Origin: Chiloscyllium plagiosum
Lineage: Eukaryota
Assembly: GCF_004010195.1 (NCBI RefSeq)
Contig: NC_057719.1
Span: 43,988,847 to 44,052,846 of the forward strand
Direction of reading: 5' to 3'
DNA: 64,000 nt
Of the stretch, positions 7,092-60,821 are shown piece after piece (position 1 is the stretch's first letter; each line of letters opens with the position of its first letter). A program made the position numbers and the translations under genes. The notes beneath the pieces are model-generated. The model was not told where the DNA came from. It did no database searches and saw nothing but the letters and a program-made list of their open reading frames with translations.

Positions 7092-7595
7092 TCTGGATGT
7101 GGGTTTGCTTGCTGAACTGGAAGGTTCGTGTTCAGACATTTCTTCATATACTAGGTAACATCTTCAATGAGCCTCTGGACAAAGCATTGCTGATGATTCC
7201 TGCTTTCTATTTATATGTTTGAGTTTCTTTGAGTTGGTGATATCATTTTCTGTGATGATGTAATTTCCTATGGTGATGTCATTTTCTGTTCTTTTTCTCG
7301 GGGGTGTTAAATCGGGTCCAAGTCAATGTGTTTGTTGATAGAGTTCCAATTGGAATGTCATGCTTCTAGGAATTCTCATGGGTGTCTCTGTTTGGCTTGT
7401 TCTAGGATGGATGTGTTGTCCCAGTCGAAGTGGTGTCCTTCCTTATCTGTATGTAAGGACAATGCTTTGATCGGAGGCTCACTGAAGATGTTACCTAGTA
7501 TGGTGACGAGACGTCTGAACATGAACCTTCCAGCTCAGTGAGCAAACCTACATCCAGAACCTCAACTTGAGCTACAAATCTTCTCAAACATTGCT
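7092..7595. mobile_element. 5'-truncated Penelope-like element (Poseidon-like GIY-YIG C-terminus) with inverted terminal repeats and a hammerhead motif
   Basis: Minus strand encodes HFDWDNTSILEQAKQR..EFLEA.HSNWNSINKHIDLDPI. 7092-7190 and about 7458-7558 are inverted copies. Direct repeat agtcaataatct at 7083-7094 and 7596-7607. Confidence 0.8.
7476..7520 (+). ncRNA. Minimal type I hammerhead ribozyme motif (one core mutation, GAAA to GAGA)
   Basis: GGCUCA CUGAAGA U GUUACC-UAGUAU-GGUGAC GAGA CGUC^ UGAAC. Confidence 0.7.
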
Positions 7596-7679
7596 AGTCA
7601 ATAATCTATAATTTTCTACTTTAAAAATACACATTTTTCTGAAGCCCTATGAAAATGTCAATCATCCAGATCCTTTAAA

Positions 7680-8006
7680 GATTAGATTAGATTAGATTAC
7701 TTACAGTGTGGAAACAGGCCCTTCAGCCCAACAAGTCCACACTGACCTGCCGAAGCCCAACCCACCCAGACCTATTCCTCTACATTTTACCCCTTCACCT
7801 AACACTACGGGCAATTTAGCATGGCCAATTCACCTAACCTGCACATTTTTGGATTGTGGGAGGAAACCGGAGCACCCAGAGGAAACCCACGCAGACACAG
7901 GGAGAATGTGCAAACTCCACACAGAGAGTCACCTGAGGCGGGACTTGAACTTGGGTCTCTGGCGCTGTGAGGCAGCAGTGCTAACCACTGTGTCACCGTG
8001 CCGCCC
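7680..8006 (-). mobile_element. HE1-like tRNA-derived V-SINE, full length
   Basis: A/B-box tRNA head GGCGGCACGGTG...GTTCAAGTCCC. V-domain TGTGTGGAGTTTGCACATTCTCCC...GGTTTCCTCCCAC. LINE-derived tail with (TCTAA)n. Confidence 0.9.
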
Positions 8007-9310
8007 AAATGTAAAAAATACAAGCACTTAGAAATGCATTTTTACCATGTGTAAATATTGTGCAATTTACAGAATGGATCAAAGAGACAGATCTGTCAAC
8101 CAAGCAATGTTTCCCTGGGATGCAGATGTTTCAACCTGAGTATTGGATGTCTGGGCTCGAGAAGTATTTCAAAGTTTTCCAAGGAGAGTATAAGGGACGA
8201 TCGGGCACAGTGGAGGGGTATAGCTTGGCATGGAAGGCATCCGTAAAGCCTTTTCAACCTGCACATCATTCAAACTAAGGCTCATGATACCTCTGAAGGG
8301 ATGTAAATCATGAGTTCTTTCAAAGCAGGCCTGACACCATGATAATTGAGACAGGCTAAGAGGTACCACTCCCCATTACAGAGCTGGCCAAGCCAGGAGT
8401 ACAAGGTATAAGCACAAGACCTGAAACATCCTGCACCCTTAATTCAGATTGGTCAAAATCTGAAATTCCAGGAACAGGCTTTGGAATCCTGGACTTGAGC
8501 TCTGGCTGCTTATATTTCGCTTCCACAAAGTCATCCTGGCTTCATGAAAATCCAGCCCATGGAAATGAATGAAGCACATATTTAATTCACCACTATTGTT
8601 AAATATCACACAAGAATTAAGAAAAGAAGATTTAAAAAAAACAAAGTATTTATTTCACTCTTTGAATATTATTGAAACGTAGCAAGTTCTGCATGAAGCT
8701 TTAGACCGCGTCAGAATTCCTTAGATGATAAATATGCCTTCTAACATGTGACTGAATATTACAAGAAACCAAACCAATCTCAAAAAACTTGAGCTTGTTT
8801 TTGAACAAAACCCAAAAGCAGGAGTTCCAAGGAAGGAAACTATGACCACCTAAGGGGAGAAGGCCTGTCAGCTCATCTGGGAATCAGGCAGTTCTTTAGC
8901 TGCCACTGGAATTTCTGCTGGACTTAGGACCCCAGCCCAGCAAGTCCCCTGTATGGATCTGCCATCCAATCTCAGAAGCCTGCAGGTCAGAACTCAGGAC
9001 AACCAAGACAGAGTGTGTGGCTGCTGCTACCAGACTCCCAGAATGAAGCATGACTGTTGAAAAGGCTGAGTGTCATTTGGGGTAGGGTTTCTGGCATTGG
9101 GGTTCATTGGTTAAGGGGCACAAGAGGGTCAGGGTGAAAGCAAGAGTGTGGCTTTAAATGGCTACCCAAGTAAGCTAGATGCATTTGTATTTAGGTAAAT
9201 TTGGAAGGGGTCTGATCTAGCATCCTCTACTTAATAATTAAGTTCACTCACACCTTTAGGCCTGCCACCATTCTAGAATATCATGCCCCGGTCTTAGCAT
9301 ATTATAGTAC

Positions 9311-9449
9311 CTTGATCACAGTCGACAACATCACTCTTGGTCTCCATTTCCTCTGACAAGGGACTTCTCATCAATGGTTTAAAACTTCTCCCTTGTGTCT
9401 GATATGCTTGTAACTCAGATTGCAGTTCATCAATCCTGTCCTGGAGCTC
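9311..9449 (-). CDS. NIN: Ninein coding exon (139 nt; ELQDRIDELQSELQAYQTQGR...DCDQ-G)
   Basis: Hand translation. TAG/GT boundaries. Phase 0 in, phase 1 out. LQD..DELQSEL motif. Confidence 0.93.
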
Positions 9450-9689
9450 CTAAATTTGATAAATATATAAGATAATTAAAAATAGATATATAAATTATTC
9501 TGCACAAGTAAAAGTGATTTTCTTATAACTCTACAACACACAAAAAAATTGACTTTAATTCCTCTCTTTGGTGTTGCGAACAGGCCTCACAGGATATGCA
9601 GTGGTGGAAATCGACAAACAAACACAGTCTCAAAAGCTAAATGAAGGACATTTCTCGCTTTCTGAAAGGGAACTGATACCTAACTGTTT

Positions 9690-9960
9690 TGATTGTTAGC
9701 ACTGCTACCTCAAAATCAGTAGGATGTGGGATTCGGCTCCACTCCAAAACAGAATCTTGGTTAATATTTTAGTAGAGTACTCAGGAATTTCTACATTGTT
9801 GGAGATGTAGTTTTTTGATGAGGTAAGAATCAAGGCTCAATTCAGTTAGATGAAGAAATCTCCCAAGTCATAATCAAAGAAAAGCAGGACATTCATTTCA
9901 CTGCTATTTGACTGATCTTGGATTAAGCAAAAACAGTTGCCCCATTTCCCTAAATTACCA
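9690..9960 (+). mobile_element. Old Deu-domain SINE (SacSINE1-like), decayed
   Basis: tRNA-like head followed by agtactcagga...cattgttggag...gatgag. Similar to the copy at 40030-40435. Confidence 0.55.
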
Positions 9961-10079
9961 CTTTCTGTTCAATTCAATGGACGCAAACATGCACACATGC
10001 AAGTATACGAAATAAAGGGGGCATGACTATGGAGAACGCACACGTGGTGATTAGGAGAAAGTCTGCCAAGTGCTTCTTA

Positions 10080-13258: not shown

Positions 13259-13983
13259 CCAAATTAGCTTTCTACACATTGCAAAACTGTACTTTGAAAA
13301 GTTAAATTGAAACAAATTGTGAAAATAAATGTTGCTATTCTTTTGAAGAGTTAAATACTGCAGCTTTGCTGTGTGCACACAGGAAAAATTAGGAATTATT
13401 TTAATGCAGAATTGCTGTACATTCCATTCATATTGTTATCTCTGTGTCACTGTCCTCGGCCACCAGCACATACAGTATAAAAAGTATAAATTCTTGCATT
13501 TGTATGGCAAGGAATCATGATTAGTTCTTCCTCCCCCCAGCATTATTCCAAGAGAATCTAAAGATGGTGGCTTTTCATTCACTTAGGCTCCAGTATACAG
13601 TAGGTGAAGAACAACATTTTGGAAAAGTGTGTATGATATTAAATTAATTGTCAAGACTTCTGAAGCTAGTATCACTTGCTGCTCTTCAAATGAGTATAGG
13701 AAAATCAAGCTAGTGTTCAAATGTGTTTCACAAGCAAGAAAGATTTGCAGTGAGGAATAAATTGTATGCCCATGAAGAGAGAACAACCTAAATATTCATC
13801 ACTTCACAGTATTTCATCACAAATTCAGTTTAAACAAAAATATTTGATCCAGCTGAAAGAGAATTCTTTCGCATACCGCCTTAAGCTTTGAAATATGAAT
13901 CTAATCACTTTACATAGTTTCTCTTCCTTGGTGAATTATACATTTATAAAACAGAAATTATAAACAGAAAAGGGAATGTTTAC

Positions 13984-14158
13984 CTTCAATGACAGAGCAA
14001 GTCGATCCCTGAGGTATCCATCTTCCACTTTCATTTTCTCAATCTCTTTCTCAAGTTCTGTTCTTTGTTTACTGGCCTGGTGGAAAATCTGGTCTTTTTC
14101 TTTGGTTAGATCTGCCTTCAAAGCAGCAAAACGATGTCTATATTCTTGCTCTAGCTTG
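13984..14158 (-). CDS. NIN: Ninein coding exon (175 nt; KLEQEYRHRFAALK...LRDRLALSLK)
   Basis: TAG/GT boundaries. Phase 2 in, phase 0 out. RDRLALSLK motif. Confidence 0.95.
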
Positions 14159-15072
14159 CTAAACAATAAAGAGCACAACAATATGAACAATGTGAAACCA
14201 TTTATTTGTTGGATTACTTTTAGCTTGGGTGTTTTAGAGCAGCAGAATATTTTTAGACACATGCAAACAGACCAAAGGATTCAACTTGAAGAACTAATAT
14301 TTAGCAGCCAAATAACAAAAGAAATGTGACTTTAAGAGTTACCATTAAATTTTCATGTATATTGTGAACTTTTTCATAATCCAGACATGAAGATTTTCAG
14401 CAAATTGAAAGTACTGCTGTGTTAAATCAGATCTACTCCATATTTATGCTTTATAATCTCCCCACAATACCATCTGCCAGCACAATATCCACTTTAACAA
14501 TGGCTCTCTGCACATTCCCAACATAGCCACTATAGGAACTTTCTCAACTATTCTGTTAAGTGCTACTTCAAACAGATTGTTCTTTTTCTTGTTCTCATAA
14601 ATACATAAAATGCACTACAAGGAACATTTACTAGCAGTGTAATACATTATCTGGTGACTCATTTGATTAATCCTAATAAAACTATTAAGGGCAAGTCTTA
14701 TAATTGTTACAGAACCAGCTTCTTGTATCCCTGAAATGAATTTTCTATCTATAAATGAATCACGGGCCTGTGGAGTCTGTCTTTGGAGAAATTATATTCC
14801 AATGATTAGGAGTAGACCTTTTGAATCGATTTTACAGTGTTTAACAGTCTTCTATTTTGCTAAAGACAATTGCAGACTAATTCATCTTAAACATAAACTA
14901 ATTTTCATGTACTGCTACAAATGATATATTATTCTGGAATAGGTTATCTATAGTTTTTTTGGAGTGGTTGTAATTACCTAAATCATATGGTACAGATAAC
15001 ACAATAACTTTTTACATTCCCAATTGAATGATATATATGCTTTATTAGAAGGACAGGGATGTCTTGAATACA

Positions 15073-15255
15073 GGGAGACAGTGAGGTCTGCAGATGCTGA
15101 AGATCAGAGTTGAGAGTGTTTTGCTGGAAAAGCACAGCAGGTCAGGCAGCAGCCGAGGAGCAGGAAAATCGACATTTCGGGCTGGCCCAAAATGTCGATT
15201 TTCCTGCTCCTCGGATGCTGCCTGACCTGCTGTGCTTTTCCAGCAACACACTCTC
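15073..15255. mobile_element. Fold-back palindromic PLE terminal-repeat element with 14-bp TSD
   Basis: Inverted arms of about 72 bp (15111-15182 and 15185-15256), homologous to the PLE end at 17554-17630. TSD atgtcttgaaYaca at 15059-15072 and 15256-15269. Confidence 0.85.
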
Positions 15256-15585
15256 ATGTCTTGAACACAACATAGTGCTCAATACATTCACCTGTTGCTG
15301 TGCTGAAGCTGATCTATCCCTTCTAAAGTCAACTTGCTAACTCAGATGGAGGAAAACCAACATTTGCATCCATGCTTCTGCTAATACTTTACTTGGGCTA
15401 GGCTCAAAGTGGTGAATGACAATAATATGGGCTGTGCAGTGGCTCCAAGATTCAACGCACGTCAATTGGCATAATGGGCGAAGCAATGCACTGATTTCTG
15501 GCTTTCGATGTTGCTATTGTGCATGGACCTCAGAGGTCTGCACACTGAAAAGAAAAATTCAAGGGAGTATTGGCCTGGATTGATC

Positions 15586-16170: not shown

Positions 16171-17613
16171 CTAAAAGAAGAAGCAATTGTGATAAACTTC
16201 ATGAAAACAATGTACTCAAATGAAATTAAATATTTTTTGTTAACGAATCATTGTACAGAAAGTAGTAATGATTTCAGGGATGTTATGGGGTGTCCTGTAC
16301 TTGGTTTATTTAAATTTCTTGAAGTAAAGGGGTAATTGATTTAACAGAATTGCTTTGTGATCCCTCATTGTTGCCATCCAGGTTACAGCAGTCAAAGCCA
16401 TCTGGAAGAATGCCCATCACTGCAAGAAGGTCAATGACCTCCTCTGCCAGTTTAAGTGCCACCATTCTCTCTCCAATACCTCACATTCACTCTCTCTGTT
16501 ATTGGATCCACTTCCACCAAGGTTCATGCTGTACCACGCTCTCTATTGCCTATACCATCTTGCCCAACCCAACATGTAATACCACTCACCCAGCATGCCC
16601 TCTGCGTGCCTACTCATTTGGGAAACCCACTCAGAAATCAACAGTAACAGCTGTGCCACCCACTTTCATCTTCCATAATATCTGCAATTTCTCTCAGTCC
16701 AGGAGGAAAACAGCTCACAATACAACAGTGAGTCATAACTGGAGGTGTACCACCCATCTTCCAGCTACTCACTGCTTATCAATAGAGGATTTTGATTCTG
16801 ATTGCCCTGAGCAGAACTGGGACTGGTCTCAGAAGTTGCTGTTGACTTAAAGTACTGGGAAGCCTGAGCAATAGTTATCACTCTTGACTAGACTGAAGCC
16901 TGCTGACAATGATAACAAGCTTCCTGACTCTGTTTTGTGCTACATGGCATAGTAAGATACTAGTAATATGAGCCTGGTATCTCTGGCTGAAGGGACAATA
17001 TACGAAAATGCAAGGTAAGGTAATGTACAGCAGGGATGCTGTGAGCATCCAGGTAGGCTCAGAGTAAGTAAACGCAATGTCAGGAAGCACACGATCTGGA
17101 CCTGATGACAGGCTAGGTGCATGCCCGTGATCATACAGTGTTCTTGCTGCAGCGTTAAAGCAATGGGTGTTAGACTGGCCTGAGGTGTAATAATTGAAGT
17201 CATGAAGCATCCTGTAAATGGATCAGAGAAATGCCATAAGGTTTGCAGAAACTAGCACACGTTGGATACCAACATCCACGTAGCCAATGTCCGTAGTGTA
17301 TGCCTGAAATGGAGGTTTTATTTGGAGCAAGTAGCAAGTTGTACGTAGTTTCCATGTTGAGGTTTCCTCACAGCTAGTTTGTACAATGATTTTTGACAAG
17401 ATCACACCCGGTGGCAAGTTAGGCTGTTAACAAGGCATTTAACAAGCAATAATGAGCATTACTTAGGAACATTCCTCTGTCTGGTGGGAATCTCACTACA
17501 CCACATAAAAAAGGTGAACAATGTGCGGCAAGGTGATCTTGATGTCGAGATGTGAGCTGAAAATGTGTTGCTGGAAAAGCACAGCAGGTCAGGCAGCATC
17601 CAAGGAACAGGAG

Positions 17614-17649
17614 AATCGACATTTCGGGCATGAGCCCTTCTTCAGGAAT
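17614..17649 (-). ncRNA. Minimal type I hammerhead ribozyme motif in the PLE pseudo-LTR
   Basis: AUUC CUGAAGA A GGGC-UCAU-GCCC GAAA UGUC^ GAUU. Confidence 0.8.
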
Positions 17650-18026
17650 GAGGAAAGTGTGTCCAGCAGGCTAAGATAAAAGGTAGGGAGGAGGGACTTG
17701 GGGGAGGGGCGTTGGAAATGCGATAGGTGGAAGGAGGTCAAGGTGAGGGTGATAGGCTGGAGTGGGGGTAGGGGCGGAGAGGTTAGGAAGAAGATTGCAG
17801 GTTAGGAAGGCGGTGCTGAGTTCGAGGGATTTGACTGAGACAAGGTGGGGAGAGGGGAAATGAGGAAACTGGAGAAATCTGAGTTCATCCCTTGTGGTTG
17901 GAGCGTTCCTAGGCAGAAGATGAGGCACTCTTTCTCCAGCCGTCGTGTTGCTATGGTCTGGCAATGGAGGAGGCCAAGGACCTGCATGTCCTTGGTAGAG
18001 TGGGAGGGGGAGTTGAAGTGTTGAGC

Positions 18027-18397
18027 NNNNNNNNNNNNNNNNNNNNNNNNNNNNNNNNNNNNNNNNNNNNNNNNNNNNNNNNNNNNNNNNNNNNNNNNNN
18101 NNNNNNNNNNNNNNNNNNNNNNNNNNNNNNNNNNNNNNNNNNNNNNNNNNNNNNNNNNNNNNNNNNNNNNNNNNNNNNNNNNNNNNNNNNNNNNNNNNNN
18201 NNNNNNNNNNNNNNNNNNNNNNNNNNNNNNNNNNNNNNNNNNNNNNNNNNNNNNNNNNNNNNNNNNNNNNNNNNNNNNNNNNNNNNNNNNNNNNNNNNNN
18301 NNNNNNNNNNNNNNNNNNNNNNNNNNNNNNNNNNNNNNNNNNNNNNNNNNNNNNNNNNNNNNNNNNNNNNNNNNNNNNNNNNNNNNNNNNNNNNNNA
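18027..18397. other. Assembly gap (371 N)
   Basis: Run of N. Confidence 1.
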
Positions 18398-20006
18398 TGG
18401 GTTGGCGTTTTTACAGGGGGCAGGATGGGAGGAGGTGTAGTCCAGGTAGCTGTGGGAGTCGGTTGGTTTGTAGTAGATGTCCGTGTTGATTCGGTCGCCT
18501 GAGGTAGAAATAGATAGGTCGAGGAAGGGGAGGGAGGAATCTGGGACTGTCCAGGTGAATTTGAGGTCGGGGTGGAAGGTGTTGGTGAAGTGGATGAACT
18601 GTTCAACCTCCTCGTGGGAGCACGAGGGAGCGCCGATACAGTCATCGATGTAGCGGCGGAAAAGGTGGGGGGTGGTGCCAGTGTAGCTGCGGAAGATGGA
18701 CTGTTCCACATATCCAATGAAGAGGCAGGCATAGCTGGGGCCCATGCGGGTGCCCATGGCTACTCCTTTGGTTTGGAGGAAGTGGGAGGATTGGAAAGAG
18801 AAGTTGTTCAGGGTGAGGACCAGTTCAGTCAGTTGAAGGAGGGTGTCAGTGGAAGGGTACTGGTTGGTACGGTGGGAAAGGAAGAAGCGGAGGGCTTTGA
18901 GTCCTTCGTGATGGCGAATTGAGGTGTACAGGGACTGGATGACCATGGTAAAGATAAGGCGTTGGGGACCGGGGAAGCAAAAATCGTGGAGGAGGTGAAG
19001 GGCGTGGTTGGTGTCCCGAACATAGGTGGGGAGTTCTTGGACTAAGGGGGACAGGACCGTATCGAGGTATGCAGAGATGAGTTCGGTCGGGCAGGAGCAG
19101 GCTGAGACAATGGGTCGGCCGGGGCAGTCAGGTTTGTGGATTTTGGGCAGGAGGTAGAAACGGGCGGTGCCGGGTTGTGGGACTATGAGGTTGGAGGCGG
19201 TGGATGGGAGATCCCCTGAGGTGATGAGGTTATGGATGGTCTGGGAGATGATGGTTTGGTGGTGGGAGGGGGTCATGGTCAAGGGGGCAGTAGGAGGAGG
19301 TGTCCGCGAGCTGGCATTTAGCCTCAGCGGTGTAAAGTTTGGTGCGCCCAACTACTACTGCGCCCCCCTTGTCTGCCGGTTTGATAGTGAGGTTGGGGTT
19401 GGAACGGAGGGAGTGGAGGGCTGCACGTTCCGAGGGTGAGAGGTTGGAGTGGGTGAGAGGGGTGGAGAGGTTGAGGCGGTTAATGTCGCAGCGGCAGTTG
19501 GCTATGAAGAGATCGAGGGCAGGTAAGAGGCCAGCATGGGGTGTCCAGGTGGATGGGGTGTGTTGGAGCCGGGAGAAGGGGTTGTCAGAGGGTGGGCGAG
19601 AATCCTGGTTGAAGAAGTAGGCACGGAGGCGAAGGCGGCAGAAGAATTGTTTGATGTCACGCCGCGTGTTGAACTCGTTAATCCGAGAGCATAGGGGAAT
19701 GAAGGTGAGGACACCTTTATGAATTTCTCTCACGATTCTATCATTCACCTCGCCAAAGCCCACATCACTTAGGGCCTGATAAGGTTCCACCCTGTATTTC
19801 TACCAGAAAGAAAATTCAAACAAAAATAAACTGAAAGAAAAAGTAAAATAGAGAAATGAGTAGGAAAGTATTCAGCTCACCTATATCAGGCTTCAGAAGT
19901 TGGATCAGCTAAAAATACAATGACACTAATGTAATCAGTGTCCATAAATCAGTATATGAACAAAGAAAAGTGCAGGCATATGCAAAAGAAATGTGAAAGA
20001 ATTCTT

Positions 20007-20052
20007 TAGATTAGATTAGATTAGATTACTTACAGTGTGGAAACTGGCCCTT
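20007..20052 (-). mobile_element. Extremely truncated HE1/HER1 3' tail
   Basis: Nearly identical to 7682-7724: (ttaga)n ttacttacagtgtggaaac.ggcccttc. Confidence 0.75.
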
Positions 20053-20093
20053 CTTTTATTCTATCTTACAAAAAAAAGAAACAATTGACTTAC

Positions 20094-20230
20094 TTTAAAT
20101 GTCTAATCTCATTTTTGAAGCTGGCCAGAACAGCTTGGTGGATTCCATTCTTTGTTATCACGAGCTCGTTCTCCAAAGCCAGGGTAAGTTCTGTCAGGTT
20201 GACCTTCCCATACAGATCAAAATCCAAGGT
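20094..20230 (-). CDS. NIN: Ninein coding exon (137 nt; TLDFDLYGKVNLTELTLALENEL...EIRHL)
   Basis: CAG acceptor and GTAAGT donor. NLTELTLALENEL motif. Phase 0 in, phase 2 out. Confidence 0.95.
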
Positions 20231-20400
20231 CTGTAAACAGTGAGCACTTATGTTGGCCATCATGTAGAATCCAGCAAGCACATCACCATTAATGAGAGGC
20301 ATGTAATTCTCACATCCATTCAAAGCGATCATAATAAAATGTAAACAAGTTTGTACAATTAAGCATTTTTTCACCCAAAGATTTTCATCTGTTGTCATAC

Positions 20401-20568
20401 CTTTAGAATTTCAAGGCCATTTTCAATTCCTTCATCTTGCCAGGTATCCAAGATCTGATCTGCTGAAGTGTAACCTGTCCCATCGTCCAAGCATGAAAAT
20501 AGACGAAGGCCAATAGTACTAGTCATAGCAGATGGGGTAGCAGTGCGCCGGCCGCTTTCATCAAATGG
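20401..20568 (-). CDS. NIN: Ninein coding exon (168 nt; PFDESGRRTATPSAMTSTIGLRLFSCLDDG...EILK)
   Basis: Hand translation. TAG/GT boundaries, phase 0/0. Near-identical to the recalled mammalian FDESGRRT..SAMTSTIG segment. Confidence 0.95.
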
Positions 20569-21102: not shown

Positions 21103-21234
21103 TAAAAAAAATTGCAGATGCTGGAAATCTTAAACAAAGAAATTGCTAGAGAAATTCAGCAGATCTGGTAGCATCTATGGAGAGAAAGCAGAGTTAATGT
21201 TTCAAGTCCATTGACTCTTCATCAGAACCTCTTC
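21103..21234 (-). mobile_element. Short PLE pseudo-LTR insertion beginning with a hammerhead motif (21191-21231)
   Basis: GAGGUU CUGAUGA A GAGUC-AAUG-GACUU GAAA CAUU^ AACUC, then the ...ccagcatctgca tail. aaactatta repeated at 21089-21097 and 21235-21243. Confidence 0.75.
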
Positions 21235-24600: not shown

Positions 24601-24996
24601 ATATTTAATACCCAGACCCATCCTTTCTTGATCCAAGTTTTTGTTATTACCAATAAGGCAATATGCGCCTGTAAGTCCCCAGTCTTACTAACTATATTTT
24701 GTGCATTCACAAATATGCACACTTCATTACTTTCTCCCTTACTCCAACTCGACCTATTAACTTTCTATTCTCTAACTTGTGCCATTTCCCAGCATTTTGT
24801 GCATCTATGTTTACTGTTAAATATTCTCTTCTGGTTTGTACAATTCTGCTGAATTAGTTTAGAATATAATCTGCATTGGAATGTAAAGGAGTTCTTGAAG
24901 AAACAAAATAATCACAATGTTGAGTAGGTGCCGATTCCAGAGTAAGTCTACGTGGTATTTTGTGGAGGCAGCAGGTTGACGTGTGAACAGGGCAGG

Positions 24997-25125
24997 GTAA
25001 AAACAAGGACTGCAGATGCTGGAAACCAGATTCTAGATTAGTGGTGCTGGAAAAGCACAGCAGTTCAGGCATCATCTGAGGAGCAGTAAAATCGACGTTT
25101 CGGGCAAAAGCCCTTCATCAGGAAT
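24997..25125 (-). mobile_element. Short PLE pseudo-LTR insertion with 8-bp TSD
   Basis: Homologous to 17554-17649 plus tail. cagggcag at 24988-24995 and 25126-25133. Confidence 0.85.
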
Positions 25126-25126
25126 C
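25089..25126 (-). ncRNA. Minimal type I hammerhead ribozyme, core intact
   Basis: GAUUC CUGAUGA A GGGC-UUUU-GCCC GAAA CGUC^ GAUUU, with a palindromic ACGU helix III. Confidence 0.82.
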
Positions 25127-33352: not shown

Positions 33353-36300
33353 GTACAAAGAACAAAGAAAATAACAGCACAGGAACAGGCCCTTTGCCTG
33401 TCCAAGCCTGCACCAATAGAGATCCTCTATCTAAACCTGTTGCCTCTTTTCTAAGGATCTGTAACCCTCTGCTCTCTGTCCATTCTCTCTAGATACATCC
33501 TAAATGATGCTATCCTGCCTGCCTCTACCACCTCTGCTGGTAACGCGTTCCAGCCACCCACCGCCCTCTGCATAAAGCACTTACTACGTATATCTCCCTT
33601 CAACTCTTCCCCTCTCACCTTGAACTCATGACCCCTAGTAATTGAGTCTCCCACTCTTGCTACCCACCCTGTCTATACCTCTCATGATTTTGTATGACAT
33701 CTACAGCACTTCCCTCGTCATTCAACTTTGTCACTTTCTCAAAGAATTCTATTGAGTTGGTAAGACATGACCTTTCCTGCACAAAACCATGTTGCCTATA
33801 CCTCTCATGATTTTGTAGACTTCAATCAGGTCCCCTCTCAACCTCCATCTTTCTAATAAAAATAATCTTAACCTATTCAACCGCTCTCCATAGTTAGTGC
33901 CCTCTATACCAGGCAATATCCTGGTGAACTTCCTTTGCAGCGTCTCCAAAGCATCCACATTCTTTTGGTAATGTGGCGACCAGAACTGTACGCAGTATTC
34001 CAAATGTGGCTAACTCGATACAACTGTAACAAAACCTGCTGACTCTTGTACTCAATATCCCATCTGATGAAGGAAAGCATGCCGTGTGCCTTCTTGACCA
34101 CTCTATCAACCTGCATTGTCACCTTCAGGGAACAATGGATCTGAACACTCAGATCTCTCTGAATAAATTTTCCTCAGGACTTTTCTATTTACCATGTAGT
34201 TCACTCTTGAAGTGGATCTTCCAAAATACATCATCTTGCATTTGCCCGGATTGAACTCCATCTGCCATTTCTCTGCCCAACTCTCCAATCTAACTATATT
34301 CTGCTACATCCTCTGACAGTCCCTTTCACTATTTGCTACTCCACCAATCTTAGTGTCATCTACCAACTTGCTAATCAGACCACTTATACTTTCCTCCAAA
34401 TCATTTATGTATATTATAAACAACAATGGTCCCAGCACAAATCCCTGTTGAACATGACTGGTCACAGTTGTCCATTTTGAGAAACTCAATTCCATACCTG
34501 CTGTCCAGCCAGTTCACTATCCATCTAGATAATACACTCATCAGCCTACCATGGGGAACCTTACCAAAAGAATGTGGATGCTTTGGAGACGCTGCAAAGG
34601 AAGTTCACCAGGATGTTGCCTGGTATGGAGGGCACTAACTATGGAGAGTGGTTGAGTAGATTAGGATTATTTTTATTAGAAAGATGGAGGTTGAGAGGGG
34701 ACCTGATTGAGGTCTACAAAATCATGAGAGGTATATGACATCTACAGCACTTCCCTCATCATTCAACTTTGTCACTTCCTCAAAGAATTCTATTGAGTTG
34801 GTAAGACATGACCTTTCCTGCACAAAACCATGTTGCCTATCACTGATAAGCCCATTTTCTTCCAAATGTTATTAAATCCTACCCCTCAGTATCTTCTTCA
34901 GCAGTTTCCCTACCACTGACGTCAGGCTTATCGGTCTATAATTACCTGGATTATCCCTGCTACACTTTTTAAACAAGGGGGCAACTTTAGCAATTCTTCA
35001 CTCCTCCGGGACCTCACCCGTGTGCAAAGAAATCTGTTAAGGCCCCGCCTATTTCCTCTCTCGCTTCCCTCAGTAACCTGGGATAGATCCCATTCAGACC
35101 TGGGGACTTGCCCACCTTAATGCCTTTTAGAATACCCAACACTGCCTCCCTCCTTATGCCAACTTGACCTAGAGTAATCAAACATCTATCTCTAACCTCA
35201 ACATCCATCATGTCCCTCTCCTTGATGAATACTGATGCAAAATACTCATTAAGAATCTCATCCATTTTCTCTGATTCCATGCATAACTTTCCTCCTTTGT
35301 GCTTGAGTGGGCCAAACCTTTCTCTGGTTACCCTCTTGTTCCTTATATATGAATTAAAGGCTTTGGGACTTCTTTTAACCCTGTTTGTTAAAGATATTTC
35401 ATGATCTCTTTTAGCTCTCTTCATTACTTGTTTCAGAATGGTCCTACTTTCCTGATATTCTTCCAAAGCCTCTTCTGTTATTCTTCTGTTTTCAGTTGCC
35501 TAGACCTTCCTTTTTCTTCTTAACTAGTCTCATAATTTCACCTGTCATCCTGGTTCCCTAACCTTGCTAATCGTCTATCCCTCATTTTCACAGGAACATA
35601 TCTCACCTGAACTCTAATCAGCCTCTCTTTAAAAGCCTCCCACATATTGAATGTAGACTTCCCTTCAAACAGCAGCTCCCAATCAACATTCCCCAGCTCC
35701 TGCTGAATTTTGGTATAGTTGGTCTTCCCCCAAAATTAGCACTCTTGCCTTAGGACCACTCTTGTCTTTGTCCTTGAGTTTCCTAAAACATACAGAATTG
35801 TGATCGCTATTCCCAAAGTAATCCCCAACTGCAACTTCAACCACCTGGCCAGGCTCATTCCCAACACCAGATCCAGTAGGGCCCCTCCCGAGTTGGACTG
35901 TTTACATGCTGCTCTAGAAAACCCTCCTGGATGCTCTTTACAAATTCTGCTCCATCTAGACCTCTAACACTAAGTGAATCCCATTCAATGGTTGGAAAAT
36001 TAAAATCTTCTACCACCACTACCCTGTTGCTCCTACATCTTTCTATAATCTCTCTACATATTTGTACCTCTATCTCATGCTCATTATTGGGAGGCCTGTA
36101 GTACAACCCCAAAAATGTTACCACACCCTTCCTATTTCTGAGCTCTGCTCATATTGCTTCACTGCTTGAGTCATCCACAGTGCCCTCCTTCAGCACAGCT
36201 GTGACATCCTCTGACCAGTAATGCTATTCCTCCACCCCTTTTACTTCCCTGTCTATCCCAACTGAAGCATTTATATAAAGAGACATTTAGTTGCCAATCA

Positions 36301-36975: not shown

Positions 36976-39775
36976 CACTAATTCATGCGCCCATTTATTA
37001 ATCCTCAATTATCTGTTAAACAACTGGAATTTTAAATGCTTACAGAGATTTAGCAGTTTGTACAATAAAAAAAGTACTAAACAAATGGAGGGCGGGGGGG
37101 CATTCGCTCGTGTTCTCCTGACTCTATTCCACTCATTAAAGTTTGATGGGAGATTCTGCACTATGCATTTCTTCTTTAGCCCAGATTGAAGTATCCCAGA
37201 GGAAATGTGCATTATTGTTAGGTTGGCAAAATCTTAATGGACAACAGCAATGTGACTGTCATTGCTGTCAACTGCACGATTCACAGCAATGCCCCAATAT
37301 GTACATGGGGAGGCAGGAAGATATACCTAAAACCCAGAACAAGGAATTTGTTTATATCAACAGCACGATCTGAATAATTTTTTCATCTTTCATTTTACAC
37401 CCAGCACTCACCTAGATTGGACACTGATTGGTTATAGAAGTGGGTTACTTGGCTCACCAACTTAATTCAGCATCTGCTGCCAGAAATATAATGAGCAATG
37501 AAAGGCAGATGAAAGAGGCCAGCCTGCTTTTTTACCAATGTTTAAAAGGGAGAAAGGGGTGGGGAGGGGTGAGTGTTGACTCCCATTTGGGCTTGGGTAC
37601 AAAAGTGTTTCCTCTTTTGGGGAGGGGCAAAGATGCTCTGTGCATATCAGGGTCAACCGTTCCTTTGTGCCTCCCTATATCCTACAGCCCAATCTCCTGC
37701 ATTCCCATGACTCCCTGTAGCCCCAGCATTGGCCACTACTAATTATAGCACCGCTAGGACTAGATGACTGCTGGCCAATCAGTTCTCAAGGATGAAACTT
37801 CTTTCCTTTAGAGTCTGAGCTTGTTGACGTTGCTCCTAGGGGGTTATTGTTGTGGGAAAACTATTTTTAAAGTCTGTCTTTTCTACTGGGGAGAGATTGG
37901 TCAAATATTACACCACTCCCTCATGTAAATCCATACTGTTATTTTGAGTTTCTGAGAGGCATGCAGGAATTCACAATTAATCCAAACTATACTCTTGCAT
38001 CTTAATACAATCTATTCTCCACCAAAGGGCCACTGAACTCAAAATGTTAACTCTGCTTTCCTTCCATAGATACTGCCAAATCTACTTAGTTTCTTCATCA
38101 ATTTCTGTTTTGTTTCTCACCCAAAGATGTCTGTTCTTTAATCAACAACGTGGAAACACAAGCTTGGCTGGGGTGAATGAGAAAATTTCAGCAAATGTTC
38201 ATTAAATGTGTGTCATTTGTATTCCATAATGTCCAGATTTGAGCAGCACACAGCAATCTTTACTTCAGAGTTAACCAAAAATCCATTATTACTATCGTGA
38301 ATAAAATTCACCATTTTATATGGCAAATTCCAAATGGACTTTGACTAATGAAGTCAAAGCTCACTTGTATCATCAGTTACCATTTATTACATAAAGTAAT
38401 TTGTAAAATGAAACATCTATTGAATATATAAGAATAAACCCTGACTATTTAATTACAAGATGTGGTTCTTGTCCAGACCAGTCAACAGCATCTCTCTCCA
38501 TTTGTACTGAGTTAGCTGATATCAGCAAAAGCAGACAGGGTTGCTATAAATGGGCTTCAGTACCACTGATCAGGGGACAGACAAACCAAGAGGCCTACCA
38601 ACCTCTACCATCTAGGCCTAGACCTGAAGGTCTGGAATTTTCCCTGGATTGGGGAGAATGGCAATTCATTTAGTGGACATAATGGCTGCCTTCATGCCAC
38701 TTCAGGCACTAAGTCCTAGGTGGGAAGGTTCACAGTCAATCATCCTGACCTGTTGTTGATTAAGGCCCTTAACAAGCACTTCAGAGCCTCAGCCCAAAAT
38801 TTCCTGTTAACTTTGTTCCCAGTGGCCATCTTTCTGACTGCTACATGCTTGCCGGATGGGTGAGAGGAATGCATTGATTTGTCTCAATCTGGGGCAGTTG
38901 GAATTATAGATGGTGTGCAGATAGCTGCTGCTGAAAGCCTAACCCTGCTCTTGCCTCCTATCCCTCGCTTCTTGTGACCACAACTTCACGCCAAAATTAC
39001 TTGCCTCCCTGCTGCACCTGGTCTGCAGAGAGCAGTCAAAACCTTCAATGTAGCTTCACCTTTCATAGGGATTGCTAGCCTCTGATTGTCCAGCAACCTC
39101 AGGCAGGGCAGGGCAGGTAGGAACTGACTGGCCAAGTATCTGCCAGGCTACCACTTTAGCGTTTCATTGGTACTTGATCTGGTTGGCTTTGTTAATGGTT
39201 GGAATAGGATTGTGGAGTCTCAATCTTAAAGACATTCACCCCCACCCCCCTCCCCAAACAAAGAGAAAATCTAGCTGAATACACTTAGGTATGAAAGGAT
39301 AGTCAATGCTATGGGACAGTCTGACAGCATATGTCAGGTGGGAATTTCCCCACCTCCTTCAATAATTACTCTTTCATACTGAAATTGTTGATTCCTTGGT
39401 GGATAATGGATCCAATTAGTTCTGGGTAGCAGCAGCTCAGCATCTAATTCAAGGGGACATCACAACTGAACTGAATTATGTCCTCACAACATGTCATATG
39501 CTGACCTCACCCAGTGATTAGGGGTAAGATCCCTGGCCCAGGAGTACTCAGCCTAAATGGTACCCTACTTTCATCTCAGCTAACCACAGTTAATTCAACA
39601 ACTATAAGTCAAACTCTGAAGCTCCTGGTCTGAACACCTCAGTTACTCACAAAACAAACTGACTAGACTATCAGAGAAGCTCAGTTTTTAAAAATACCAA
39701 AAGTATGCATTGCTTTAAAAAATGAACTAAACCTTAGTGTTCACAAGATATTTTAAGTCTGCAGTTCATCCCTAC

Positions 39776-40435: not shown

Positions 40436-40621
40436 TTGCTTTAGCTGAAAAGAGAAGCATAACTTACAAGAACTCACTCCATTTTTAGACATTCATGGGT
40501 ATAGCAATTTGTAGGGCATTTCCTGAAGTGCATGGGGTGGCACCCAGCGCACTCTTCCATTAGTGATTTTTGCAGAGATTTAACTGCCAAGTGTGCAAAA
40601 ATAAAATTTTACCATCAAGCA

Positions 40622-40832
40622 CACAGAGAAAATACTGGAGAAACTCATCAGGTCTGTCAGCATCTGTGGAGAGAGAAACAGAGTTAATGTTTCTTCAGTT
40701 CTGAAGAAGTCATATCAGATTCAAAACATGAACTCTGTTTCTTTCTCCACAGATGTTGTCAGACTTGCTGAGTTTCTCCAGCATTTTCTGTATTTGTTTC
40801 AGATTTCCAACATCCACAGTATTTTGCTTTTA
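40622..40832. mobile_element. Older fold-back PLE terminal-repeat element with a decayed hammerhead at its centre
   Basis: Inverted arms at about 40624-40692 and 40723-40790. Central agtt ctgaaga...aaaa catg aact. Same family as 21103-21234. Confidence 0.72.
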
Positions 40833-45600: not shown

Positions 45601-45975
45601 TAATTGGCTAGCTCCCTGGATCCCATGTGATCTAACCTTACTAACTAGTCTACCATGAAAACCTTGTTGAACACTTTGCTGAAGTCCATAAAGACAATGT
45701 TTCTAGCTCTGTCTTCATCAATTCTCTTTGCCACTGCTTCAAAAAACTCAAATCAAGTTAGTGAGACATGAATTCTCACACACAAAACCATGTTGACTAT
45801 CCCTCATCAGTCCTTTTGAAATACATATAAATCCTGTCTTTCAGAATTCCCTCCAATAACTTACTCACCAGTTCCAAAGAAGTGTCATATTGGACACGGA
45901 ACACAAACTCTGTTTTTTATTCCACAGATGCTGTCAGATCTACCAAACTTATGTCTTTATTTCAGATCTCTAGCA
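42680..45975 (+). mobile_element. Old, near-complete Penelope-like element (RT plus GIY-YIG), interrupted by a CR1 at about 45063-45868
   Basis: Colinear with the 17.5-19.7 kb element (LPKIHR.DYPGRP, GYG.CMDPSYA, DIYYK). GIY-YIG motif LVYCICCSQYGLLYIGETK at about 44470-44527. A pseudo-LTR with a decayed hammerhead resumes at 45870. Confidence 0.82.
45063..45868 (-). mobile_element. CR1/HER1 fragment with internal deletions, nested in the old PLE
   Basis: QWAEEWQMEFNLDKCE, WNKLPEELVEA and QHGFV motifs. Confidence 0.8.
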
Positions 45976-45978
45976 TTT

Positions 45979-47030: not shown

Positions 47031-47208
47031 TCATACCAAACAAGTAAGAATTGGCTGGGATAATATGTCATGCTTTGAATTAATCAAGGATCTAATTTGC
47101 TCAGCAAGATTATGGGACAAGAAACAATATAGTTTATTCTACATAAATGATCGTTAGACACACTTGTAGCGAATGATTTTATAATTAAGTGGATTACTAG
47201 ACTAGGTA

Positions 47209-47390
47209 CATTGGCCATGCTAAATTGTCCATAGTGTCCAGGGATGTGCAGACTAGATGGATTAGCCATGGGAAATGCAGGGTTTTGGGAACAGAGTAGA
47301 AGGTGGATCTGGATGGGTTGCTCTTCGGAGGGTGGGTGTGGACTCAATGGGCTAAATGGCCTGTTTCCACACTGAGGGATTCTATGATTT
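47209..47390 (+). mobile_element. HE1-like SINE 3' half
   Basis: ttggccatgctaaattg...ggcctgtttccacactg...ctatgatt, shared with 7680-8006. Confidence 0.8.
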
Positions 47391-52659: not shown

Positions 52660-54032
52660 GAGGTGATGGTTAGAAAACTTGTGAACAATTTGATCAGCAT
52701 ATGACATGATGTAATAGCTTTTGTTTGGCATACAATGCCATCTGCATCTTTTGTTTCAATACTGTAATGTTATAAACTTAGTTTCATACAATGTTAGTTA
52801 AAGAGTTGTTATTTTCATAAACCCTTGTATTGCACTGTTCATGTGGTAGTCTCTGTTTCTATTCTGAATATGGGCTAAACACAGGCAAAATGGTACCAGT
52901 TCGGTTTAGAATACCTAGTTGGAGTGAAGAGTCTGTTTCTGTGCTGTATGACTCTATGAAGCATGACTCCTTGGCCATTAACAAAATTAATGGTTGGGGT
53001 GTACAATGAGCATCAAAACATTCTGTGGGAGCAAGGATAGCAGTGTGTGAGCATGGAATCAGCACACTTTGATACCTTAGGCAGTTTTTCCCTTAAGCAT
53101 CACTGTTACTGTTTAGCTGGCAGCAGTGTAAATCTGAGGGAGCTTCCCAACAGTGACAGAGAGGAGTAACTGAGACAGCCAATGCTGCAGGATGGTCTGG
53201 CAGTAGGCATCCTACTTGTCTGTGTTGGCAAGATAATGTGCATTACAGGATAATTATGTTCCTTGAGAACTCCCAGTGAGTGGTTGTAGATGCATGTTCA
53301 TCCCTCACAAGTTGGCTCACAGACCCCACTCACTGCATGTCCCTTCACAGCCATTCTCCCCAACATTGCATGCTAACCATGTACTTCACAATTGGAACAA
53401 TGAGCGGCCCTCTGCCAGTGGCTTTCAGTCTCATCACTGAGATGCTCAACATCACTTTCTCCTTTCTAATTGCTCTTTTCTGTCAACACCGCAGAATTCA
53501 CATTTCCTGGGTGATCACCCAAGCCATGTGCATGTCACTCCATCTTTGTACATGCAGCCCCCTCTTCTCTGGTCAGCCTCCCCCTTAACTTCTATGAATA
53601 GAGGAAATGGGACAACCAAGGTCTACCCCTTGAGTGACCTGATCTGCCAGCATCAGCCCTCACGTGCCCAGCTCTCTGGCTGGTGGACACAGATGCCTGC
53701 TACTATGACATCCCTTCCCATTCCCAATTGGCCCCTACAGAGACAAAGGACTGACCATGACCTGCTCCCCACAGAATGGAGGCACGGCCTACTTTGCAAT
53801 GCCATCCTGCCTGGACACCTGATCACGGCTGAAGCCCAGGACTGGTGTGGGAGGCTGCTCAGTCCTAGCCATGCTGGACTCCCGATTGACAGGTATCCTC
53901 ATGGATTTCATTGCGGACTACTCCATGAAAACTTTCAAACATGTCCACTGCTTGCTGCAGATGCCAAGTGTTTGGTGCGAATGCAGAGGCTACATGATAC
54001 AAGTATTAGAGTGACATAAGGCTGAAGTAAAA

Positions 54033-54345
54033 ATAGAATCCTTACAGTGTGGAAACAGGCCTTTCAGCCCAACAAATCCATACTGATCCCATTCCCAAAC
54101 CCATTCCCCAGTACTTTACACTTACCCATGACTAATGCACCTAACTTAGACATCCCTGAATACTATGGGTAATTTAGCATGGCCAATTCACCTAACCTGC
54201 ACATCTTTGAGCTGTGGGAGGAAATCAGAGTACCCAGAGAAAACTTCGCAGTCACGTGGAGAATGTACAAACTCCACACAGACAGTCGCCTGAGGCTGGA
54301 ATTGAACGTGGGTCCCTGGCGCTATGAGGCTACCGTACTGAGCCA
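54033..54345 (-). mobile_element. HE1-like V-SINE
   Basis: Colinear with 7680-8006 and more diverged. Confidence 0.85.
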
Positions 54346-57756: not shown

Positions 57757-58085
57757 TTGGTTGCCACAGTATTGAACAATAAGATATCAGAACTGGAGAA
57801 ACAATGCTACAAGTTATATTGCAACCTAGACTTCACTGAAAAACAGAAAAGACAAAGTTGTGAAGTTTTAGAGGCCTTGAACAAACATTTTGAGCCTGCA
57901 AATAATGTCATCTATGAATGCTACATCTTCAATATGACAGCTCAGGAACAGGAGGAGAGTATGTGGCTCTACTGTGACATCTAGATGAGTCTTGCAAGAT
58001 TGGGCAACAGAAGGATAATCTAATCAGAGACATGGTTGTCATAGGAACAAGGAATCCCACAATGAGAGCATTTCTGATGAAAGAA
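57757..58085 (+). mobile_element. Gypsy-type LTR retrotransposon gag relic
   Basis: VATVL...LEALNKHFEPANNVIYECYIFN..QEQEES, then SCKIG...NLIRDMVVIG, typical of fish/shark Gypsy gag. Confidence 0.75.
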
Positions 58086-58599
58086 GGGAAGGTTAGGGCC
58101 AGATATTCATCCTCAAAGTGGGATTTGGGAAAATTACCAAACCTGCACACCTATCTTGGCTAATACTGATTCTGGAGGGGTGATTTTCATTTACACACCT
58201 GGGGAAATGGCTGTGGAAGTGACCTGTTTAAAAGGCCTGCTTTGGGCTGGGGGACTTTGTCTTATCTGTAAGAAGAAAAGCCCTACAGTCTTCATCCCCA
58301 CAATACACACTTCCAATGCAGCATAGATTATACACCCCAAACACCCTACCATGTTTTATCATACAATCCACTGCCAAAGTTTTCCCCTCCTCCCAGCCAG
58401 TGGCCAATCATGCTCCTATGCCAAAACATGACATTTTCATTTACAATGAATGAATTCAATCATGACAGTATTATGTGTTAAAAAATCTTTGATAAAGAGG
58501 TTAATTGTGAACAAACATTGTGAAACTGATAGCAGGTATCAGACAACCAAAGCTTTGAATCAATGGATGGCTCAGATGTTTCAACATTCAGTGAACAAT

Positions 58600-59720: not shown

Positions 59721-59721
59721 G

Positions 59722-59918
59722 CACAGGGATTAGCCAGACAGGTTCAATAGAGGCATTTAAAAAAGGACTGGAATGGATTTTTGGATAGTTCTGGTGTGCA
59801 GGGTTCTGGGAAAAGCAGGAGATTGGCACTAGATAAAAGAGCCAGAGTAGATAATAGAGCCAGTGCAGGCATGATTGGCCAAATAGCCTTCTTTTGCACC
59901 GTAATAATTGTGTGATTC
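59722..59918 (+). mobile_element. CR1-type 3' tail fragment
   Basis: gaggcatttaaaa...ggcatgattggccaaatagccttctt...gtaataattgtgtgatt. Confidence 0.6.
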
Positions 59919-60427
59919 ACTGAATTGAGCTCTGGAGCTGCTCCTTCAACTACAGTGGAGCTTGTCCAGTTGTCCGCTAATTCAGTTGATTCTTACTGCT
60001 GAATGGTTTTTGGCTCCATTTTGCAGTCTACTGCTGTCTGGTGATGAGCGCCTGGTGAGACCTAAAATTTTTTTTTCTCCATCTTGACGACATATTTCAC
60101 TTCAATAGTTACATTTGACGCCACTGCTTTTTGCTGCCTTTCCTGTTTCCACCATTTTCGATCATGTGTGTATGGTCCAAATTACTTTAATCTTCCAAAT
60201 TCTGCTTTTTGAGTCCAAGGTACTTTCCTTTAAGCTGTTCCGTTACAACTTGGTATATACACACATTCTCTTCGATCGCTCTACACAATCATCTGAGACA
60301 GACATAATCAATGCATCATTCTACATTATCACCTTTATACATTCTGCTGGTGTCTCGTTACTCTAAATCAGTAGCTTTATTAAAGCTGAGAGTTATTGAG
60401 CCAGTCAGAGTGTAAAGATTCAACACA

Positions 60428-60642
60428 GGTAGAAAGTGAGGACTGCAGATGCTGGAGATCAGAGCTGAAAAATGTGTTGCTGGAAATGCGCAGCAGGTCA
60501 GGCAGCATCCAAGGAGCAGGAGAAGCGACGTTTCGGGCATAAGCCCGATTCCTGAAGAAGGGCTTGTGCCTGAAACGTCGAATCTCCTGCTCCTTGGATG
60601 CTGCCTAACCTGCTGCGCTTTTCCAGCAACACATTTTTCAGC
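60428..60642. mobile_element. Fold-back palindromic PLE terminal-repeat element with 14-bp TSD and a central hammerhead
   Basis: Inverted arms at 60464-60546 and 60560-60642. TSD aaagattcaaSaca at 60414-60427 and 60643-60656. Confidence 0.87.
60547..60584 (+). ncRNA. Minimal type I hammerhead ribozyme, core intact
   Basis: GAUUC CUGAAGA A GGGC-UUGU-GCCU GAAA CGUC^ GAAUC, with a perfect 5-bp helix I. Confidence 0.82.
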
Positions 60643-60734
60643 AAAGATTCAAGACACTCAATAAAAGATAACCTACTTGGCAATGTGTAACCTGTGTGTA
60701 GCAGTTGTTACCACAGTTAAAATGACTGAATAGA

Positions 60735-60821
60735 CAACCACCTGTTGAAGGAGCAGCACTCCGAAAGCTAGTGCTTTCCAATAATCCCGTTGGACTATAA
60801 CCTGGCATTGTGTGATTTTTA
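60735..60821 (+). mobile_element. 87-bp hammerhead-headed mini-insertion with 10-bp TSD (third family)
   Basis: CAC CUGUUGA A GGAG-CAGCA-CUCC GAAA GCUA^ GUG at 60739-60773. actgaataga at 60725-60734 and 60822-60831. Confidence 0.75.

What the first reader, a model, noticed from the sequence alone, without database searches (positions are those of the whole stretch)
7476..60773. At least three unrelated Penelope-type terminal-repeat families share a minimal hammerhead ribozyme with an extra nucleotide after A9
Seen: six readable motifs (7476-7520 +, 17614-17649 -, 21191-21231 -, 25089-25126 -, 60547-60584 +, 60739-60773 +) and decayed ones (about 40697, 45870, 61277). They fit helix I - CUGANGA - N - helix II - GAAA - NNUH - helix I'. 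The helices differ in sequence but stay paired: helix II GGGC/GCCC, GAGUC/GACUU, GUGUC/GACAC, GUUACC/GGUGAC, GGAG/CUCC; helix I GAUUC/GAAUC, GUU/AAC, UCA/UGA, CAC/GUG. Helix III is reduced to a 4-nt palindrome (ACGU or AGCU) in the best-preserved copies. Known: PLEs carry minimal hammerheads thought to cleave as dimers. Inference: this shark genome hosts several parallel ribozyme-bearing families, all with an unpaired A or U between the core and helix II. I do not know whether these specific families have been described.
Basis: partly seen in the sequence, partly recalled or inferred. Interest (0 to 1): 0.75.

Follow-up and report, generated by a model that had tools for sequence, protein, structure and literature searches.

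The report
Shark Penelope retroelement hammerhead stubs
The motifs are real copies of a small self-cutting RNA motif already described, extra letter included, at the ends of Penelope-like jumping genes; most copies here are damaged stubs, and the one fresh clue is that many stubs begin at the motif's first letter, which likely marks the capped start of the element's RNA.

Summary
The six motifs are real minimal type-I hammerheads (min-HHRs) in pseudo-LTRs of Penelope-like elements (PLEs). They form four families: A and B (related) and D are Neptune-like, C is Poseidon-like. Exact family patterns match 91,119 times in the genome; reversed controls give 0. The headline is not new: the extra nucleotide after A9 and the palindromic helix III are in the published min-HHR consensus (PMC4209133). 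Only 2 of 6 copies keep both core and palindrome; two have core substitutions. Most copies are short insertions with 8-12-bp target duplications, often head-to-head. Beyond the finding: in an unbiased 1.14-Mb sample, 49 of 187 family-A 5' ends fall on the first bases of helix I and 6 of 187 near the cut site (genome-wide 7,263 versus 625). A G precedes that edge in 8 of 12 resolvable insertions. This suggests copying of uncut, capped RNA that starts at the ribozyme; it is inferred, not shown. In family C the extra U is part of a likely AUG start codon. No cleavage was seen in RNA reads. The scan reported this system and the capped-start reading many times on other DNA. Verdict: new members of a known kind.

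The parts
7092..7459 (-). Family C (Poseidon-like) inverted 5'-truncated copy: 3' end of the element, decayed hammerhead, short tail
   Evidence: blastn to family C locus L085, 85%; sequence
7460..7596 (+). Family C short copy with long tail; min-HHR at 7476-7520 with A14 to G; the extra U is part of ATG 7488-7490. The head-to-head unit is flanked by a 12-bp duplication at 7083 and 7596
15074..15256 (.). Family A head-to-head palindrome centred on loop II, lacking CUGANGA; 10-bp duplication at 15059 and 15256
17547..19712 (-). Family A (Neptune-like) 5'-truncated PLE: RT region, assembly gap, end of the endonuclease frame, 3' region, min-HHR at 17614-17649 (helix III AUGU), short tail
   Evidence: ORFs, weak Pfam RVT_1 E 4e-6 below cut-off, DKG motif in the translation, sequence
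21117..21231 (-). Family B short copy; min-HHR at 21191-21231, intact core, helix III ACAU
24996..25125 (-). Family A solo short copy starting at helix I; min-HHR with intact core and ACGU; 8-bp duplication at 24988 and 25126
38025..38116 (+). Family B decayed copy, core lost
40617..40819 (.). Family B head-to-head pair; decayed min-HHR near 40697 (+)
45860..45975 (+). Family B decayed copy (about 45870)
60431..60642 (.). Family A head-to-head pair: minus copy begins at helix II (60546), plus copy begins at helix I (60548) with one extra G at 60547; min-HHR 60547-60584; 10-bp duplication at 60414 and 60643
60734..60824 (+). Family D (Neptune-like) solo short copy; min-HHR 60739-60773 with A6 to U and AGCU; 10-bp duplication at 60725 and 60822
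61277..61399 (+). Family B decayed copy

Best explanation
The motifs are minimal type-I hammerheads in the pseudo-LTRs of four Penelope-like retrotransposon families, present here mostly as short, damaged insertion products that were likely copied from uncut element RNA. Shown: in family A the hammerhead and its tail lie both after the RT/GIY-YIG frame and before its ATG; copies end at two preferred 3' points, carry 8-12-bp target duplications, are often head-to-head, and in families A, B and D start preferentially at the 5' edge of helix I. Inferred: reverse transcription starts internally in the tail, as shown in vitro for the anole element PAc; when it starts on the 5' repeat it runs about 90-130 nt to the RNA's 5' end, which would be a capped start at helix I. 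Inferred from the literature: in an intact element the ribozyme would cut slowly after GUC, GUU or CUA, helped by a second copy (dimer through the ACGU or AGCU palindrome) or by the element's protein; the dispersed stubs are probably inert.
For: Chance excluded (59 descriptor hits in 1.14 Mb, 58 with exactly one extra nucleotide although 0-2 were allowed, 1 in the reversed control). PLE link: A, RT with DKG motif upstream in the window and a CX4CxxC linker; B, endonuclease-end peptide upstream in L058, L046 and L037 and a tail shared with A; C, GIY-YIG-like frame directly upstream, 85% identical to an RT protein of another shark; D, endonuclease frame 68% identical to a protein with RT, CX4CxxC and GIY-YIG motifs. 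The tail runs into a 5' region and ATG at 297 exact sites. 3' ends are bimodal and 70 of 76 paired A members have one long and one short tail, the published PLE tail signature (PMC11167929; PMC8557442). Unimposed helix pairs hold: first helix II pair 28/30, 30/30, 29/30 in B, C, D; helix I pair 3 in C 26/30 with three pair types. 5' ends. G at the edge.
Against: No cleavage evidence: RNA reads of a related species show no pile-up of starts or ends, lie on both strands, and 94% run on into unlike sequence. Pfam gave no GIY-YIG hit for any fragment; the endonuclease call rests on motifs and homologues. The G excess among solo copies was not significant in the unbiased sample (A: 14 of 33 at the peak, 10 of 41 elsewhere, p 0.08; B and D not significant). 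Only 13 of 35 candidates gave a resolvable duplication. The 30 tail-into-ORF loci have mixed 5' ends and only 2 continue for 900 nt or more. Family C shows no peak (4 of 28 ends near the edge). In D. virilis Penelope the start lies 46 nt before an intron that ends at helix I, so not at the ribozyme (PMC2377424; PMC4209133).
Confidence: 0.85

Rival explanations
1. The 5' peak at helix I is a joining hot spot, not an RNA start: reverse transcription stops where the cDNA can anneal to an AT-ending target overhang made by the endonuclease.
For: In 8 of 10 flush duplications the target continues with AT, matching the element's first bases. The PAc endonuclease prefers 5'-ATT-3' (PMC11167929). 24 of 38 head-to-head A pairs have a member at the peak, where short palindromes can drive fold-back.
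Against: The same GATT word sits at the cleavage site and draws 11.6 times fewer junctions (625 versus 7,263). B and D peak at the equivalent place without ATT. All 3 junctions with extra bases have G. 25 of 33 solo A copies at the peak have unique flanks.
Confidence: 0.3
2. The stubs are 3' cleavage products or circles of an active ribozyme, that is a retrozyme-like non-autonomous family that spreads through self-cleaved RNA.
For: Junctions at the cut site are 1.8 times more frequent than at +4 after correcting for flank composition. Animal retrozymes derive from PLE pseudo-LTRs (bioRxiv 10.64898/2026.07.22.740005, abstract and part 1).
Against: Copies mostly begin upstream of the core, not at the cut. 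Of 30 cut-site loci, 20 were inverted junctions explained by short shared words, 4 were mutations or small indels in longer copies and 6 were solo. Same-strand family neighbours within 1 kb are few: A 10/123, B 2/29, D 4/48, though C 10/27.
Confidence: 0.07
3. The motif is kept as a protein-binding, promoter or start-codon element and does not cut in vivo.
For: PAc ribozyme mutants insert normally in vitro and no RNA-seq ends were found at its cut site (PMC11167929). Naiad PLEs thrive without hammerheads (PMC8557442). Helix I is only 3-4 bp here.
Against: All catalytic core bases and the NUH site are kept across DNA-unrelated families while helices change. PAc's motif cuts when its protein is added, with C3G/G8C rescue.
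Confidence: 0.2

Closest known systems
Minimal hammerheads (min-HHR) in pseudo-LTRs of metazoan Penelope-like elements (Cervera and De la Pena 2014, PMC4209133; read parts 1-2 of 4 and supplement 2 part 2; supplement 1 not readable)
   Same: Core, extra H nucleotide between 9 and 10.1, G10.1-C11.1, palindromic 15.2-16.2 without loop 3, short helix I, several families per genome, mostly single copies or opposite-strand pairs.
   Different: No shark term in the searched supplement. Copy number is at least 91,119 here against about 4,000 (coelacanth) and 9,000 (Xenopus). Helix II is shorter in A (4 bp). The 5' end peak is not mentioned in the parts read.
PAc, Poseidon element of the green anole (Frangieh et al. 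2024, PMC11167929; read parts 1-2 of 4)
   Same: Hammerhead at the start of the ORF region, two internal RT starts giving the optional tail, uncut RNA as the main template. Family C has an AUG at the start of stem II, as PAc does.
   Different: In family A the ATG lies about 135 nt after the cut site, outside the ribozyme. No activity was tested here.
Neptune and Penelope/Poseidon clades of endonuclease-bearing PLEs (PMC8557442 and PMC3846280, passages only)
   Same: RT with DKG motif, C-terminal GIY-YIG, CX2-5CxxC linker in A and in D's relative, none in C's relative; inverted truncated 5' copy, tail at one end, short target duplications.
   Different: Clade placement rests on motifs and homologues; no tree was built. 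Penelope's mapped start lies upstream of an intron, not at helix I.
Chrysanthemum chlorotic mottle viroid (+) hammerhead with an extra A between A9 and G10.1 (review PMC3705267, passages)
   Same: Same insertion site; A and U are the tolerated bases there (A slightly slower, U 3-4 times faster, C and G harmful), and A and U are the bases seen here (51 and 3 of 54).
   Different: A canonical viroid ribozyme with full helix III and loop contacts.
Non-LTR retrozymes of animals (PMC7229834 passages; bioRxiv 10.64898/2026.07.22.740005 part 1 and passages)
   Same: Type-I hammerheads in short, abundant, PLE-related repeats.
   Different: Retrozymes are tandem arrays; these copies are dispersed or head-to-head.

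Membership tests
PLE min-HHR (Cervera and De la Pena 2014) | CUGANGA and GAAA cores with NUH cleavage triplet | tested here: met
   Met at family level; 2 of the 6 listed copies have a core substitution
PLE min-HHR (Cervera and De la Pena 2014) | One unpaired H nucleotide between 9 and 10.1 | tested here: met
   58 of 59 descriptor hits with 0-2 allowed; A or U
PLE min-HHR (Cervera and De la Pena 2014) | Helix III reduced to a palindrome without loop | tested here: met
   ACGU 25 and AGCU 12 of 54; 13 more are single changes at the central CG or GC
PLE min-HHR (Cervera and De la Pena 2014) | Paired helices I and II with compensatory change | tested here: met
   Pairing kept at unimposed positions and between families; no phylogeny-aware covariation test was run
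PLE min-HHR (Cervera and De la Pena 2014) | Self-cleavage, as dimer or protein-assisted | not testable with these tools
   RNA reads gave no ends at the site, but they come from passenger copies
Endonuclease-bearing Penelope-like elements | RT plus C-terminal GIY-YIG frame upstream of the repeat | tested here: met
   A, C, D; B only by an endonuclease-end peptide and kinship to A; no Pfam GIY-YIG hit
Endonuclease-bearing Penelope-like elements | Repeat also precedes the ORF start (pseudo-LTR) | tested here: met
   Family A only: tail continues to an ATG at 297 exact sites. Not found for B, C, D; for C no continuing copy among 16 long tails
Endonuclease-bearing Penelope-like elements | Inverted truncated partner, optional 30-40-bp tail, target duplication | tested here: met
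Neptune versus Penelope/Poseidon clade | CX2-5CxxC linker between RT and endonuclease | tested here: inconclusive
   Present in A (L018) and in D's relative P0001, absent in C's relative P0003; no tree built
Non-LTR retrozyme | Tandem arrays of units each with a hammerhead | tested here: not met
   Few same-strand neighbours within 1 kb in A, B, D; none for the six window motifs

The most novel reading that the evidence does not exclude
In shark Neptune-like PLEs the transcript starts on the first base of the hammerhead, and a large share of roughly a million genomic stubs are strong-stop-like cDNAs of the capped, uncut 5' leader. The ribozyme would then act as a decapping switch: cutting removes a 32-nt capped leader (and in the Poseidon-like family the AUG), shutting off translation rather than preparing the template.
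Probability: 0.45. Interest if true: 0.6.

Novelty: new member of a known kind. Interest (0 to 1): 0.3.

Why it matters
The motif and its extra nucleotide are known, so the catch as written adds shark families and a large copy number to a described class. The role of PLE hammerheads is still open. The sharp 5' boundary gives a specific, testable prediction for where the RNA starts and says the copied template is uncut. The young, abundant families offer natural substrates for cleavage and insertion assays.

Tried and rejected
Rfam found no hammerhead family up to E 10; its miRNA hits are the palindromic pairs. A DNA search of the genome returned nothing because common words are skipped. Pfam found no GIY-YIG domain in 5 fragments and the PDB sequence search had 0 hits for the RT. 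An apparent common 5' boundary of long copies near the GxKF-like motif was an artefact of my query start. Long open frames are inflated by N runs. A hidden subfamily explains 8 of 33 solo A copies at the peak; the peak stays after removing them. A splice acceptor at the peak was considered and rejected for A: no AG there and no shared upstream exon in the flanks; B does have an AG at that place, so it is not excluded for B. A nearest-neighbour energy comparison of monomer and dimer was uninformative. No RNA holder was listed as RNA for this species; run X20 laid no reads and is no test. A search for a protein starting at the family-C AUG gave only a chimeric host prediction. Literature: searches for a description in sharks and for a start site at PLE hammerheads found none; the library lacks most subscription papers and Repbase/Dfam were not searchable. 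The cap-derived G and the initiator consensus are recalled; one search gave only a listing that I did not read.
Full report
Observation. The six motifs are at the stated places. A descriptor needing both cores, helix II of 4 bp or more, an NNUH site and helix I found 3 motifs with intact cores (0 in each of 30 block shuffles) and 5 with one mismatch (shuffle mean 0.13). Copy by copy: 7476 has GAGA, 60739 has CUGUUGA, 17614 has AUGU and 21191 ACAU in helix III. Only 25089 and 60547 keep core and palindrome. The predicted fold of 60547 in its palindromic context leaves no hammerhead helix, whereas from its first base alone helix II forms at 0.91-0.96 and helix I at 0.34-0.53. Helix I had probability near 0 in all six copies folded with their flanks; such folding is a weak guide for hammerheads.

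Families. The window holds four families: A (17614, 25089, 60547 and a palindrome at 15074), B (21191, 38025, 40697, 45870, 61277), C (7476 and an inverted partner) and D (60739). Exact patterns matched 63,983 (A), 412 (B), 2,015 (C) and 24,709 (D) times, with 0 reversed-control matches each. The A pattern imposed helix II; the others imposed part of helix I only. A and B share their tail; C and D resemble neither them nor each other. In 1,140,818 non-N bases from 12 blocks on 11 contigs the descriptor gave 59 hits and the reversed control 1; 58 had exactly one extra base. That is about 52 per Mb, or on the order of 170,000 in the genome by extrapolation. Tail-bearing copies ran at 164, 64, 25 and 61 per Mb. 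Core and helix III were intact in 41 of 123, 0 of 29, 3 of 27 and 20 of 48 core-spanning copies.

Structure across copies. In 30 loci per family, the first helix II pair was kept in 28, 30 and 29 of 30 for B, C and D, and family C's third helix I pair in 26 of 30 as C-G, U-A or G-C. Helix sequences differ between families while pairing holds. Helix I is short: 3-4 pairs, with U.U at pair 3 in 25 of 30 A loci. No phylogeny-aware test was run.

Link to Penelope-like elements. The 17614 motif follows an RT frame with a DKG motif. Family C loci have a GIY-YIG-like frame directly upstream whose best relatives are shark and flatworm RT proteins. A family D locus has an endonuclease frame 68% identical to a shark protein with RT, a CX4CxxC linker and GIY-YIG motifs; A has the same linker. 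By the criteria in PMC8557442 (passages) A, B and D look like Neptune and C like Penelope/Poseidon. In family A the tail continues into a leader and an ATG, so the hammerhead stands at both ends of the unit. In family C, A9, the extra U and G10.1 spell AUG; that frame is free of stops for 25 codons in 19 of 30 loci against 4 of 30 in each other frame. This matches PAc, whose ORF begins at stem II, but no C copy continuing into RT was found.

Insertion anatomy. Five window units have 8-12-bp target duplications. In the sample, 76 of 187 A copies and 42 of 69 D copies have a head-to-head partner, and 70 of 76 and 36 of 42 of these pair a long with a short tail. These are described PLE traits.

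5' ends. Copies were selected by their tail, independent of the ribozyme; position 0 is the base after the cut. In A, 49 of 187 5' ends lie at -33 to -31, the first bases of helix I, and 6 within 3 nt of the cut. After removing copies with shared upstream sequence, density was 8.3 ends per base at -35 to -29 against 1.2 just upstream, 1.9 inside the motif and 0.7 at the cut. B and D show weaker peaks there (2.4 and 2.0 per base); C does not. Genome-wide patterns needing three non-element bases before the junction gave 7,263 at -32, 625 at 0 and 270 at +4; the downstream words differ, so the ratios are approximate. Reads from a related species show the same boundary as 144 loose ends at -32 with mixed flanks. 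The templates were therefore mostly uncut.

Why there? The bases around -32 read TCATTC, TTATTC (A) and TCAGTT (B), like an initiator (consensus recalled); D does not fit well. Of the first 100 genome matches at -32, 54 have G at -33 (counted by eye; about 26 expected), but inverted junctions inflate this. Of 35 candidates, 13 rows (12 distinct sites) had a resolvable duplication; 8 of 12 have G at -33 (p 0.004 against 0.26), 5 inside the duplication and 3 as extra bases, one of the latter at an inverted junction. A cDNA ending in a cap-copied C would give both patterns (mechanism recalled from L1 work). Against: the unbiased comparison was not significant, the target often continues with AT, which supports microhomology joining, and Penelope's mapped start is elsewhere. 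I put the capped start at about 0.55 and the whole decapping-switch reading at 0.45.

Comparison. PMC4209133 lists the nucleotide between 9 and 10.1, G10.1-C11.1 and the palindrome as conserved traits, reports several families per genome, opposite-strand pairs, no monomer cleavage and low dimer cleavage. An extra A at this site was characterised in a viroid, with A and U tolerated. I found no paper describing these shark families, within a library that lacks most subscription journals; the retrozyme preprint sampled one cartilaginous fish, and its supplements were closed.

Earlier notes. I had noted the 5' peak and the capped-start idea before opening the scan's notes, which hold 287 matching findings in at least 27 genomes and the same reading many times. 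They are not independent evidence. One note reports a footprint at the cut site; here the excess there is 1.8-fold over +4 and mostly explained by inverted junctions.

Verdict. Real, correctly recognised, already described in kind. New members of a known kind; interest 0.3.

Noticed in passing
window 1308-3113, 4909-5490, 13936-14280, 20090-20410 (minus strand): Exons of a large coiled-coil host gene; the 20090-20410 peptide resembles ninein (recalled, not confirmed; the Atlas gave only generic coiled-coil hits). The motifs up to 17614 lie between these exons.
   Followed up: partly
L271-L300: Many family-A insertions contain the first 60-170 nt beyond the tail (ORF start) joined to another hammerhead-tail piece, which looks like template jumping; several jumps land just after the codons for MPSLKKLSS.
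   Followed up: partly
window 15074-15256: Palindrome whose centre is the helix II loop, suggesting fold-back priming on that hairpin.
   Followed up: partly
window 7676-8030, 20005-20053, 47203-47384, 54017-54339: Copies of an abundant SINE-like repeat with a (TTAGA)n end; likely a shark V-SINE (recalled).
   Followed up: no
window 33693-34857 and 35014-35499: LINE (CR1/L2-like) fragments with a 178-nt inverted repeat at 33797-33974 and 34558-34735, 96% complementary.
   Followed up: no
L002 (G000:C1:39818-42850): Fragments of an LTR-retroelement-like pol region (protease, RT, RNase H motifs) interrupted by a family-A insertion.
   Followed up: no
P0011, P0013, P0014, P0015: Predicted shark host protein isoforms contain stretches of family C sequence, either exonisation or gene-prediction artefacts.
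   Followed up: no
L253-L270: The family-A ORF has a long Pro/Thr-rich repetitive insert before the GxKF-like motif.
   Followed up: no
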